IMG/VR virus record: IMGVR_UViG_3300036770_006434
Coordinates: 1-64,000 of that record
Reading direction: 5' to 3' (one strand)
DNA from: a virus
Length of the DNA: 64,000 nt
Position numbers and translations under genes: made by a program. Shown here in pieces: positions 42,040 through 43,866 of this stretch (the stretch's first letter is position 1; each line of letters opens with the position of its first letter). Under the pieces are notes generated by a model. It saw only the letters and a program-made list of their open reading frames with translations. It was not told the DNA's origin and searched no databases.

Positions 42040-43866
42040 TCACTTCGCTTCAGCATGTTCCATCCCATTCCGCGAGCGCCACTCGTTTCCGAGGTGCAGG
42101 ACTGGCTCCGCTTGGAGGATCGGTTTCCCAACCCATTCTACGGCAGATACCTGTGTGGCGCGAGCGCCTACGGGCAACTGTTCCTGCATTGCCGCGCTCG
42201 CGGCAGATGAAACACTGTTTTCACAATGAATAGACTGAGTCGCCTCAATCCGTTTCTGGTTCACGGGGACACCGCGTGACGAAAGATTTGATTCTTTCGT
42301 CACACACCTGCGTTTGCGGCCTCTCGTGAGTTTCCCCACGACAGACGTTGAACCAGACTTGCTGACCGGGTGCGTCCCGGCCGTTTCCTTATCCGTTTTG
42401 GCGGATTCCGAAATTTGTCGCTCAGTTTTTTGAGCAATTGCCTGCGCGGCCATGTAGTCGCGACCCCAAACGGACCCGCAGCAGGAGCACGTCCACTCTC
42501 GGACCGATGTATCCTTGGGGCCAGTTACGTTCTCGCACTTGATACAGGTGCGGGTCGTATAGGCTTCGTTTACTTGGACCACTGACTTTGGCGTAACACT
42601 GCGTTTGGCAAAATCCTTGAGAATACCCTCGAAGTTGGACACCGCGTTGTCGGCGTCCTTCCTGCGGGCTGCCGCGATTTCGCGCGCAGTCTTTCCGTCG
42701 CGATTCTTTTCGTGTATGGCCGCAAGTTCGCGCCCCTTGCAGTGACCGATTCCAACCGTATCAAACTGGGAAAGGATGCTCCGCGCGGACAGACGGTAAT
42801 GTTCCGTCCTGACGTTGGTCAGCCGACGGGTCATGTCGTTCATTTTACGTCGGGTCTCAATCATGCCCTTCGTCTTTTTCCAGATCAGTTTGACGCCGCG
42901 TTTGATAGACCCTTTTTCGTCGTAATTGGCGGGGTTGTTCTGCCGCATCTGTCGATCCAATTTGCGCTGTAACCGCGCTTGGCGGCGCATAAAGGCGGCG
43001 TTCCTGCAAATCGGTGGCGTCACATTGCCCTGAATCTCGCCGTCTGCCGAGCTGATGGTGATGGCGCTCGTCCGTCCGGGGTCTATGCCGGCGACCGCAC
43101 CGTTGGCGGAAGCGAAATTCTTTTGAGCCACCTCTTCCGGAACGTCCAAAAACAGGGATACGTGATAAACATCGTCCTGAACCGTGACGCCGACCTGCTT
43201 GACAACGGCTTCCTTGGGAACTTCTCGGTGCAATTTGATATCAACTCGGGAGCATGAATCTCCGAACAGGGCCGACAGATTCACTTTGTCCCCACGGATC
43301 AAGTCCAAAGCGTCCAGTCGATTGGCGGCCTGAAGGGTGCAAGAATCGCCAAAACGCTTGAATCGCGGCGCGCCCTTTTTGTTGGATGGATATTGGTCGG
43401 TAGAATCTGCAAACTTCGCCAAGATGGACTGCAAAAACGCGGACCCACCCGAAAAATCTCCCCGTTTGATACCGTTGGAAACCGTCTCCTTGGCATATGT
43501 GAGAGCCAGAGTGCGGATGGAGGCCCGCTTAGCCTTGGTCCCGTCCTTGCGCAAAATGGTATCGGCCTTTTTAAGAATCTTGCCGTTTAATTCCAGAATC
43601 GCTTCTTGGCGACTCTTGCCGGCGGCCAACATGTCGTTCAATATCTTGGCGCGGGCACCGGTATTTTTCTTCTCGGCCAGAATGGATTCAAGGTTTTTGA
43701 CGACTTCGGCCTTGCGACCGTGCGAGCATTCGGATTCCACCCATTTCATTGCGCCGACCAAAGCGTTCCAGACCTTGCGGGATTGGCGCTGGGCATCTCT
43801 GATAGCCGGAATTTGCCCATCATTTGGGTAAATCCTGTATTTGTAGATCAGCGTGGTAAGAGTCAC
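42040..43866 (-). CDS. TnpB/Cas12-like RNA-guided nuclease (608 aa), CRISPR-associated
   Basis: YKYRIYPN N-terminus, PRFKR, RuvC-I GIDPG (D262), canonical RuvC-II Glu replaced (VGIG374H), alternative Glu VNE434AYTT, Zn finger CIKC/CSCC, RuvC-III GRD470YMAA. Confidence 0.9.
   Translation of the reverse strand: MTLTTLIYKYRIYPNDGQIPAIRDAQRQSRKVWNALVGAMKWVESECSHGRKAEVVKNLESILAEKKNTGARAKILNDMLAAGKSRQEAILELNGKILKKADTILRKDGTKAKRASIRTLALTYAKETVSNGIKRGDFSGGSAFLQSILAKFADSTDQYPSNKKGAPRFKRFGDSCTLQAANRLDALDLIRGDKVNLSALFGDSCSRVDIKLHREVPKEAVVKQVGVTVQDDVYHVSLFLDVPEEVAQKNFASANGAVAGIDPGRTSAITISSADGEIQGNVTPPICRNAAFMRRQARLQRKLDRQMRQNNPANYDEKGSIKRGVKLIWKKTKGMIETRRKMNDMTRRLTNVRTEHYRLSARSILSQFDTVGIGHCKGRELAAIHEKNRDGKTAREIAAARRKDADNAVSNFEGILKDFAKRSVTPKSVVQVNEAYTTRTCIKCENVTGPKDTSVREWTCSCCGSVWGRDYMAAQAIAQKTERQISESAKTDKETAGTHPVSKSGSTSVVGKLTRGRKRRCVTKESNLSSRGVPVNQKRIEATQSIHCENSVSSAASAAMQEQLPVGARATQVSAVEWVGKPILQAEPVLHLGNEWRSRNGMEHAEAK

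What the first reader, a model, noticed from the sequence alone, without database searches (positions are those of the whole stretch)
42457..43083. Effector has a Fanzor-type rearranged RuvC triad rather than a dead site
Seen: D262 (GIDPG) and D470 (GRDYMAA) are intact. The canonical RuvC-II glutamate position reads VGIG374H, while a glutamate appears at VNE434AYTT, where ordinary TnpB usually has a proline. Known: Fanzors and some TnpBs use this alternative glutamate and remain active. Inference: an active nuclease with a rearranged site that is CRISPR-associated, an uncommon combination.
Basis: partly seen in the sequence, partly recalled or inferred. Interest (0 to 1): 0.75.

Follow-up and report, generated by a model that had tools for sequence, protein, structure and literature searches.

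The report
Phage TnpB nuclease with relocated glutamate
A 190-kb phage encodes a TnpB-type RNA-guided nuclease whose catalytic glutamate sits at the alternative position known from Fanzors, so the site is most likely active rather than dead, and the gene is followed by a tiny three-repeat guide array.

Summary
The 608-aa ORF at 42040-43866 (-) has D262, G374, E434 and D470 at the stated codons.

The reading as a rearranged, not dead, RuvC site is well supported:
- In 116 homologues scorable at both positions, the two covary with two exceptions: G/E 79, E/non-acidic 35, plus one G/D and one Q/Q.
- D262, G374, E434 and D470 are invariant in 62 relatives.
- phmmer maps them onto D324/G416/E467/D501 of mimivirus Fanzor2, whose cryo-EM triad is D324-E467-D501.
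- A confident AlphaFold model is a TnpB fold (Z 23.4 to ISDra2 TnpB), with G374 in beta4 and E434 just after beta5.
- The protein also carries the DPG motif of RuvC-I, the second Fanzor fingerprint.

This rearrangement is already documented for Fanzors and for prokaryotic and viral TnpB clades (RIIr, TnpB2, pro-Fanzor).

"CRISPR-associated" is only partly right:
- There are three 36-nt hairpin repeats and two spacers.
- The phage has no Cas1 and no TnpA.
- No spacer target was found.
- Arrays occur in only some close relatives.
- The repeats continue a conserved, covarying RNA scaffold that overlaps the disordered ORF tail.

This looks like an omega-RNA whose 3' hairpin-plus-guide unit was duplicated. 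Cleavage itself is untested.

The parts
42040..43866 (-). 608-aa TnpB-family RNA-guided nuclease gene (P0001), GTG start, TGA stop. The core is about residues 1-500 and the tail 502-608 is predicted disordered.
   Evidence: NCBIfam guided_TnpB 101.4 bits against a cut-off of 100; Pfam Cas12f1-like_TNB and HTH_OrfB_IS605. PHROG 506 transposase, E 8e-43. AF2 model pLDDT 82. VIA-align Z 23.4 to ISDra2 TnpB 8exa.
43081..43083 (-). Codon of D262 (RuvC-I, within GIDPG; DPG motif)
   Evidence: Invariant in 62 sequences. Aligns to D324 of ApmFz2.
42745..42747 (-). [quoted passage not shown]
   Evidence: Aligns to G416 of ApmFz2.
42565..42567 (-). Codon of E434, the alternative catalytic glutamate, first residue after beta5 (428-433) and six residues before the first CxxC
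   Evidence: Aligns to catalytic E467 of ApmFz2.
42457..42459 (-). Codon of D470 (RuvC-III, RD motif at the start of helix 469-497)
   Evidence: Aligns to D501 of ApmFz2.
42478..42546 (-). C4 zinc finger of the TNB domain (C441, C444, C460, C463)
   Evidence: Cysteines nearly invariant in A2. Pfam PF07282, E 4e-11.
42026..42260 (-). Conserved structured RNA (omega-RNA or tracr-like scaffold) overlapping the ORF tail. GCGAGCGC (42201-42194) is predicted to pair with the 42079-42071 copy of GCGCTCGCG. A second copy of GCGCTCGCG lies at 42167-42159.
   Evidence: The motifs lie at fixed offsets from the RuvC-III codon in 8 loci, and in L030 beyond the frame's stop, where the gene is itself frameshifted. 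Covariation: 87.8% of cells paired against 34-46% in slid controls, and 21 pairs with double changes against 6-9. No Rfam family matched.
41990..42025 (-). Repeat 1 (36 nt hairpin), 15 nt after the stop codon
41956..41989 (-). Spacer 1 (34 nt)
   Evidence: No match in the phage's own genome, IMG/VR, GTDB genomes or cultured phages.
41920..41955 (-). Repeat 2
41887..41919 (-). Spacer 2 (33 nt)
   Evidence: No match found.
41851..41886 (-). Repeat 3 (intact; the most stable hairpin, -20.7 kcal/mol, z -3.9)
41817..41850 (-). Possible third guide after the last repeat, as after the right end of a TnpB element. Inferred only.
   Evidence: Position by analogy with the omega-RNA guide. Not tested.
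43875..43902 (-). Sigma-70-like promoter match TTGACG-16-TATAAT, ending 8 nt before the GTG start
   Evidence: 11 of 12 matches. One site was found against 1.3 expected in shuffles, so this is weak evidence.

Best explanation
The gene encodes a TnpB-superfamily RNA-guided DNA endonuclease with a D-altE-D RuvC site. The glutamate normally at the end of beta4 is a glycine (G374). A glutamate directly after beta5 (E434, six residues before the zinc finger) completes the metal-binding triad with D262 and D470, as in Fanzors and the RIIr/TnpB2/pro-Fanzor TnpB clades. The enzyme is therefore most likely an active, guide-directed double-strand DNA cutter. Following the Fanzor precedent, it may have little collateral single-strand cleavage. 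Its guide RNA is most likely made from the 3' part of its own transcript. A conserved scaffold overlaps the dispensable ORF tail and ends in a 36-nt hairpin followed by a guide. In this phage the hairpin-plus-guide unit is present three times, giving a mini-array of two spacers plus a possible trailing guide. There is no adaptation machinery. The gene is single-copy in a complete 190.7-kb phage and has no transposase partner. Shown here: the residues, their conservation and covariation, the fold, the RNA covariation and the repeats. Inferred: catalysis, RNA processing, use of the spacers, and the biological role (rival-phage or host DNA targeting, or homing).
For: Residues and coordinates. Covariation of the two positions in 116 homologues: G/E 79 against E/P, A, Q, R or S 35. 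D262, G264, G374, E434, R456 and D470 are the only invariant columns in 62 sequences of 17-45% identity. The phmmer alignment to ApmFz2 (9b0l) pairs D262/G374/E434/D470 with D324/G416/E467/D501. D324-E467-D501 is the cryo-EM triad holding Mg2+ (PMC11832414). Wild-type ApmFz2 with G416/E467 cuts dsDNA, and swapping the pair abolishes cis cleavage (bioRxiv 10.64898/2026.06.23.733943). AF2 model: pLDDT 82, pTM 0.75, beta4 370-375, beta5 428-433, helix from 469. TnpB fold: Z 23.4 to ISDra2 TnpB and 17.4 to ApmFz2. DPG plus E-x6-CxxC fingerprint. In a quick ML tree P0001 sits in a clade of 70 rows (SH-aLRT 98) that is 61 DPG+Ealt. RNA scaffold covariation. Hairpin repeats with the same architecture but different inner stems occur in the window, L003 and L004. 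Further mini-arrays occur in L030/L032 and L033.
Against: No cleavage, RNA or expression data exist. Proximity rests on strand topology and on alignment to a solved homologue. The NCBIfam TnpB score is barely over its cut-off (101.4 against 100). A few members of the wider clade have lost catalytic residues: P0028 and P0030 have K at the RuvC-III position, and P0033, P0051, P0058 and P0129 have N at RuvC-I. So inactivation does occur in this lineage. No spacer target was found anywhere searched. Arrays are absent next to close relatives P0004, P0015 and P0019. The promoter match is no better than chance.
Confidence: 0.72

Rival explanations
1. The protein is an active D-altE-D nuclease, but the three repeats are a functionless or very recent tandem duplication of the omega-RNA 3' end. 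The element then behaves as an ordinary single-guide TnpB, a selfish homing or maintenance gene in phage genomes, not as a CRISPR-like multi-guide system.
For: Arrays are patchy even between sister proteins: P0003 has one and P0004 does not; P0007 has one and P0015 and P0019 do not. They hold only 2-3 repeats. The phage has no Cas1. No protospacers were found. Only the nuclease gene is shared between loci, with no flanking synteny. Several soil copies are frameshifted, as expected for a mobile selfish gene. An HNH homing-type endonuclease lies next door.
Against: Spacers of 33-40 nt recur in five independent loci with different repeat sequences. All three window repeats keep the hairpin. The phage has no TnpA of either kind and only a single copy of the gene.
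Confidence: 0.2
2. The site is catalytically dead or impaired and the protein is a guide-directed DNA binder or repressor (TldR- or Cas12m-like). E434 would be conserved for structural or RNA-processing reasons.
For: The best single-sequence PDB hits are Cas12m proteins (23vu E 2e-7, 23vw E 4e-5), and some Cas12m bind without cutting (PMC10691335). Inactivated relatives exist in the clade. The canonical glutamate is missing.
Against: All three acidic residues are invariant across 62 diverged sequences. The G/E swap covaries with only two exceptions. The same four-residue configuration in ApmFz2 is a proven active dsDNA nuclease. In the alignments the Cas12m hits carry the canonical glutamate and proline or alanine at the alternative position, so the resemblance does not extend to the active site.
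Confidence: 0.07

Closest known systems
Fanzor2 (Acanthamoeba polyphaga mimivirus ApmFz2, PDB 9b0l) and the DPG+Ealt 'pro-Fanzor' TnpBs
   Same: It has the same active-site layout. D in a DPG motif, glycine at the canonical RuvC-II position, glutamate six residues before the first CxxC, and D after the zinc finger all align residue for residue. The overall TnpB-like fold matches (Z 17.4). It is also virus-borne.
   Different: This is a bacteriophage or soil-metagenome lineage, not eukaryotic or cyanobacterial. No IS607 TnpA is present. The DPG-to-E spacing is 169 residues, against at most 160 in the published pattern. The family profile scores higher against ISDra2 TnpB (182 bits) than against ApmFz2 (126 bits), so common descent with Fanzors is not shown. 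Some members carry mini-arrays, which are not reported for Fanzors.
RuvC-II-rearranged TnpB clades (RIIr-1 to RIIr-8, notably RIIr-5 with E to G and the virus-specific RIIr-4) of Altae-Tran et al. 2023 (PMC10691335)
   Same: Glutamate is replaced by glycine, with a compensating glutamate near beta5, and conservation implies activity. Some of these branches are virus-specific.
   Different: Which RIIr branch, if any, this family belongs to could not be determined, because the paper's supplements are not held. The core here is about 500 aa, larger than a typical TnpB.
TranC (transposon-CRISPR intermediates; LaTranC 9jfq, phage-borne CauTranC9) and small type V effectors (Cas12f, V-U groups)
   Same: It is a compact TnpB-derived effector with a short downstream array, no adaptation genes, and a scaffold RNA that resembles an omega-RNA. 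Phage carriage is known for TranC. Fold Z is 16.5 to LaTranC.
   Different: In the profile alignment LaTranC has the canonical glutamate and no alternative one. The array here has only 3 repeats and is not conserved among the closest relatives. A tracrRNA/crRNA split was not shown.
ISDra2 TnpB (8exa, 8h1j)
   Same: It is the best structural and profile match (Z 23.4, rmsd 3.1 over 328 residues; 182 bits). The guide RNA scaffold overlaps the 3' end of the gene.
   Different: ISDra2 has the canonical D-E-D site with proline at the alternative position. It sits in an IS200/IS605 element with a Y1 TnpA and has a single guide.

Membership tests
TnpB superfamily (RNA-guided nuclease, NF040570) | Profile match above the curated cut-off | tested here: met
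   101.4 bits against a cut-off of 100. This is marginal but is backed by PHROG 506 at E 8e-43.
TnpB superfamily (RNA-guided nuclease, NF040570) | WED/REC/RuvC/zinc-finger fold | tested here: met
   AF2 pLDDT 82. Z 23.4, rmsd 3.1 and 328 aligned residues to ISDra2 TnpB. C4 cysteines are intact.
TnpB superfamily (RNA-guided nuclease, NF040570) | Structured guide RNA encoded at or overlapping the gene's 3' end | tested here: met
   Covarying helices in 8 loci. Conserved motifs persist beyond the frame's stop in L030, where the gene is itself frameshifted. Binding and guiding were not tested.
TnpB superfamily (RNA-guided nuclease, NF040570) | Residence in an IS200/IS605 or IS607 element with TnpA or multiple copies | tested here: not met
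   The complete phage has no Y1 TnpA and no serine recombinase, and carries a single copy.
Ealt / D-altE-D RuvC architecture (Fanzor, pro-Fanzor, TnpB2, RIIr) | Non-acidic residue (G or P) at the canonical RuvC-II position | tested here: met
   G374 is invariant and aligns to ApmFz2 G416.
Ealt / D-altE-D RuvC architecture (Fanzor, pro-Fanzor, TnpB2, RIIr) | Conserved glutamate six residues upstream of the first CxxC | tested here: met
   E434-AYTTRT-C441. Invariant. Aligns to catalytic E467.
Ealt / D-altE-D RuvC architecture (Fanzor, pro-Fanzor, TnpB2, RIIr) | Alternative glutamate lies in the active site next to the two aspartates | tested here: inconclusive
   E434 directly follows beta5, the strand that neighbours beta4 in the RNase H fold by textbook topology.
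Pro-Fanzor / Fanzor lineage (Yoon et al. 2023) | DPG motif in RuvC-I together with Ealt | tested here: met
   GIDPG at residues 260-264. 61 of 70 rows in P0001's clade are DPG+Ealt.
Pro-Fanzor / Fanzor lineage (Yoon et al. 2023) | Published pattern DPG-x(120,160)-E-x6-CxxC-x(12,18)-CxxC-x(4,8)-D | tested here: not met
   All elements fit except the first spacing, which is 169 residues.
Pro-Fanzor / Fanzor lineage (Yoon et al. 2023) | Phylogenetic grouping with Fanzor2 and cyanobacterial IS607 TnpBs, and an IS607 TnpA partner | not testable with these tools
   Fanzor and pro-Fanzor sequences could not be brought into a tree. No serine recombinase is present. The profile scores ISDra2 TnpB above ApmFz2.
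Type V CRISPR-Cas / TranC | Repeat-spacer array next to the effector | tested here: met
   Three 36-nt repeats and two spacers of 33-34 nt start 15 nt after the stop.
Type V CRISPR-Cas / TranC | Array association conserved across the effector's relatives | tested here: inconclusive
   Arrays of 2-3 repeats occur in the window, L003, L004, L030/L032 and L033. None was seen in L001, L002, L012-16, L019-22, L034 or L035.
Type V CRISPR-Cas / TranC | Spacers matching mobile elements | tested here: inconclusive
   No match in the phage's own genome, IMG/VR, one genome per GTDB species, or cultured phages. Exact-word searches would miss diverged targets.
Type V CRISPR-Cas / TranC | Adaptation genes (cas1, cas2, cas4) | tested here: not met
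   No Cas1 in the complete phage genome. Many small type V systems also lack them.
Nuclease-dead TnpB derivatives (TldR, Cas12m-like) | Loss of one or more catalytic carboxylates without compensation | tested here: not met
   D262, E434 and D470 are invariant and the lost glutamate is compensated.

The most novel reading that the evidence does not exclude
This phage and soil clade of large DPG+Ealt TnpB-like proteins may be a previously unrecognised prokaryotic-virus branch carrying the 'Fanzor fingerprint'. In several members a CRISPR-like multi-guide array may be arising by tandem duplication of the omega-RNA's terminal hairpin-plus-guide unit. That would make it a CRISPR-linked nuclease using a D-altE-D site. 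It would contradict the view that this site is confined to a lineage separate from Cas12, and it would capture array origin at the 2-3 repeat stage.
Probability: 0.3. Interest if true: 0.72.

Novelty: new member of a known kind. Interest (0 to 1): 0.5.

Why it matters
The relocated glutamate decides whether the protein is read as a nuclease or as a dead binder. The evidence here favours a nuclease. The D-altE-D layout is linked in Fanzor2 to strong cis and weak collateral cleavage, which is attractive for genome editing. A roughly 500-aa bacterial-virus enzyme with that layout and a natural multi-guide RNA would be a useful comparator. In evolutionary terms, the family shows the DPG+Ealt fingerprint outside cyanobacteria and eukaryotes. 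Its patchy 2-3-repeat arrays, continuous with an omega-RNA-like scaffold, illustrate how type V-like arrays could arise from a TnpB guide RNA.

Tried and rejected
- Protospacer searches found nothing meaningful. Full spacers and 20-22-nt seeds were run against the phage's own genome, IMG/VR, one genome per GTDB species, and cultured phages. Only chance 19-20-nt words at E 0.4-5 turned up.
- The repeat occurs nowhere else in IMG/VR or in this phage.
- Rfam gave no family for the RNA region.
- A codon-position test of whether the ORF tail is protein- or RNA-constrained was inconclusive. Identities were 0.45/0.45/0.35 in the tail against 0.58/0.64/0.37 in the core.
- Upstream regions of homologues share no conserved left end or adjacent motif.
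- Flanking genes show no synteny between loci.
- The 96-nt tandem repeats downstream of homologues L012-L016 were considered as arrays and rejected. The whole unit repeats with no unique spacers, so they look like iterons.
- The supplements of PMC10691335 are not held, so assignment to a named RIIr or V-U group failed.
- H375 and E380 were considered as substitute catalytic residues and rejected because neither is conserved.
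Full report
**What is there.** The window belongs to a complete virus record of 190,671 bp with direct terminal repeats. On the minus strand, 42040-43866 is a 608-codon ORF. It matches Pfam Cas12f1-like_TNB and HTH_OrfB_IS605. It matches NCBIfam guided_TnpB at 101.4 bits, just over the cut-off of 100, and PHROG 506 'transposase' at E 8e-43. The C4 zinc finger (C441, C444, C460, C463) is intact.

**Is E434 a relocated catalytic residue?** Four lines of evidence agree.

- *Covariation.* A profile of the seven closest proteins was searched against 1.84 billion representatives. It gave 6,724 hits at E <= 1e-3, of which 84 were at E <= 1e-30. In a MAFFT alignment of the 120 listed hits of at least 330 aa, 116 could be scored at both positions. 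The pair (canonical, alternative) reads G/E 79 times. It reads E/P 18, E/A 6, E/Q 5, E/R 4 and E/S 2 times, plus one G/D and one Q/Q. Glutamate is never present at both positions. It is absent from both only twice.
- *Invariance.* In 62 relatives of 17-45% identity to P0001, the only invariant columns are D262, G264, G374, E434, R456 and D470.
- *Alignment to a solved homologue.* phmmer aligns the protein to chain P of 9b0l, mimivirus Fanzor2. D262, G374, E434 and D470 pair with D324, G416, E467 and D501. The cryo-EM paper names D324-E467-D501 as the Mg2+-binding triad and notes that E467 is shifted about 50 residues from the canonical place (PMC11832414). A 2026 preprint shows that wild-type ApmFz2 (G416/E467) cuts dsDNA robustly. 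The G416E/E467P swap nearly abolishes cis cleavage and unlocks collateral cleavage.
- *Model.* An AlphaFold2 model built on the 62-sequence alignment is confident (pLDDT 82, pTM 0.75; residues 1-500 mostly above 90). G374 lies in strand 370-375, E434 directly follows strand 428-433, and D470 starts helix 469-497. This is the RNase H / RuvX-type arrangement described for rearranged TnpBs (PMC10691335).

The model is a TnpB fold. VIA-align gives Z 23.4 (rmsd 3.1, 328 residues) to ISDra2 TnpB, 20.6 to ISFba1 TnpB, 17.4 to ApmFz2 and 16.5 to LaTranC. I could not read model coordinates. The direct distance test therefore remains undone, and proximity is inferred from topology and homology.

**A second Fanzor fingerprint.** Yoon et al. 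(PMC10711439) define Fanzors and their prokaryotic relatives by DPG in RuvC-I together with a glutamate six residues before the first CxxC. They report this combination in under 1% of TnpB homologues, mostly in cyanobacterial IS607 elements. P0001 has both features. It fits their pattern except that the DPG-to-E spacing is 169 residues rather than at most 160.

In a quick IQ-TREE of 117 RuvC cores, P0001 sits in a clade of 70 rows (SH-aLRT 98), of which 61 are DPG+Ealt. The other side holds 36 canonical-glutamate proteins and 10 small Ealt TnpBs, mostly with D-hydrophobic-G in place of DPG. The family profile nevertheless scores ISDra2 TnpB (182 bits) above ApmFz2 (126 bits). Fanzor sequences could not be added to the tree. 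Kinship with Fanzors, as opposed to a shared site layout, is therefore untested.

**How new is the rearrangement?** It is not new as a kind. Altae-Tran et al. describe RuvC-II-rearranged clades. In the largest, glycine replaces the glutamate and an alternative glutamate compensates. Some branches are virus-specific, and the authors infer retained activity. A 2026 review lists TnpB2, pro-Fanzor and RIIr-1 to RIIr-7 as prokaryotic carriers of the same alteration.

**The 'CRISPR' part.** Three 36-nt repeats begin fifteen bases after the stop codon, at 42025-41990, 41955-41920 and 41886-41851. They are separated by spacers of 34 and 33 nt. Each repeat folds as a hairpin with an outer stem GUCGCA/UGCGGC. 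Relatives L003 and L004 have two repeats each, with the same architecture but different inner stems. L030/L032 and L033 also carry two or three units.

Other relatives show none. These include P0004, the sister of array-bearing P0003, and P0015 and P0019, sisters of array-bearing P0007. The phage has no Cas1, no Y1 or serine TnpA, no second copy of the gene and no further repeats. Neither spacer has a detectable target.

**The guide RNA scaffold.** The last 107 residues of the protein (502-608) are predicted disordered, with pLDDT about 33. The DNA beneath them carries three nucleotide motifs: GCGAGCGC, and two copies of GCGCTCGCG. They lie at fixed offsets from the RuvC-III codon in eight diverged loci. 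In L030 they lie beyond the frame's stop codon, although that gene copy is itself frameshifted.

RNAalifold predicts nested helices, with GCGAGCGC pairing to the distal GCGCTCGCG copy. On eight sequences, 87.8% of cells pair, against 34-46% when partners are slid. Twenty-one pairs show compensatory double changes, against 6-9 in the slid controls. None of 500 shuffles reaches these values. No Rfam family matches.

The simplest reading is an omega-RNA-like scaffold that overlaps the ORF tail and ends in the hairpin that constitutes the 'repeat'. In some genomes the hairpin-plus-guide unit has been duplicated once or twice. This is the route to arrays proposed for type V systems and for TranC intermediates. 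LaTranC itself has the canonical glutamate.

**Context and role.** Only the nuclease gene is shared between the window and the homologue loci. Flanks differ, and several soil copies are frameshifted. This fits a horizontally moving, sometimes decaying selfish gene. An HNH endonuclease gene lies immediately upstream. No cultured phage carries a close homologue. The biological role remains inference: homing, or conflict with rival phages or the host.

**Verdict.** The interpretation as a rearranged active site is strongly supported by comparative evidence, but no enzymology exists. The site type is already known, so this is a new member of a known kind. Three things lift it above routine: the DPG+Ealt fingerprint in a large phage-borne clade, the sporadic mini-arrays continuous with a covarying scaffold RNA, and the absence of any transposase. 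Earlier first-stage notes on the same stretch (e1-5819874, e1-5819887, e1-5819888, e1-5819889, e1-5819890) made the same observations. I tested the RNA-motif and spacer notes here.

Noticed in passing
window 42040-42363 (-), residues 502-608 of P0001: The C-terminal ~107 residues are predicted disordered (pLDDT about 33). They overlie a covarying RNA structure. In some relatives the ORF stops earlier while the RNA motifs persist, so the tail looks like read-through over an RNA gene.
   Followed up: yes
L012-L016, about 290-900 nt downstream of the homologue's stop (e.g. L013:2616-3340): Five to seven tandem units of about 96 nt, built from 22-nt iteron-like elements (TATTGTCATCTGAGACAGAAAA), lie upstream of a 552-aa ORF. 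They are not a CRISPR array and may be a replication or regulatory region.
   Followed up: partly
Proteins P0028, P0030, P0033, P0051, P0058, P0129: Members of the same DPG+Ealt clade have substituted catalytic residues: K at the RuvC-III aspartate, or N at the RuvC-I aspartate. These are candidate nuclease-dead derivatives within the rearranged lineage.
   Followed up: no
P0005 / L002:2338-4506: This homologue carries an insertion of about 150 aa that repeats its own FKRR-DSVSLQCQITATTPC segment. This is an internal tandem duplication in the WED region.
   Followed up: no
L020-L022, L026-L030, L032: Several soil-metagenome copies of the gene align in two different reading frames. They are apparently frameshifted pseudogenes, yet L030/L032 still keep the RNA motifs and a two-repeat array.
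   Followed up: partly
window 2-154: About 12.5 tandem copies of a 12-nt unit (TTAGTCCCCAGA) lie at the very start of the record, which has direct terminal repeats.
   Followed up: no
window 43864-43902 (-): The TATAAT of the promoter-like site ends only 8 nt before the GTG start. If the promoter is real, the mRNA would be leaderless or nearly so. The match is not above chance.
   Followed up: partly
window 44190-44798 (-): An HNH endonuclease gene (Pfam HNH_4, E 6e-9) lies directly upstream of the nuclease gene. The 177-aa ORF downstream (41186-41719) has no family match.
   Followed up: partly
L035 (NCBI GCA_030012865.1 contig, 79.7 kb): Homologue P0019 sits in a bacterial assembly between Xre-type HTH regulator genes and a umuDC-like pair, with no array. 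The family is therefore not restricted to phage contigs.
   Followed up: no
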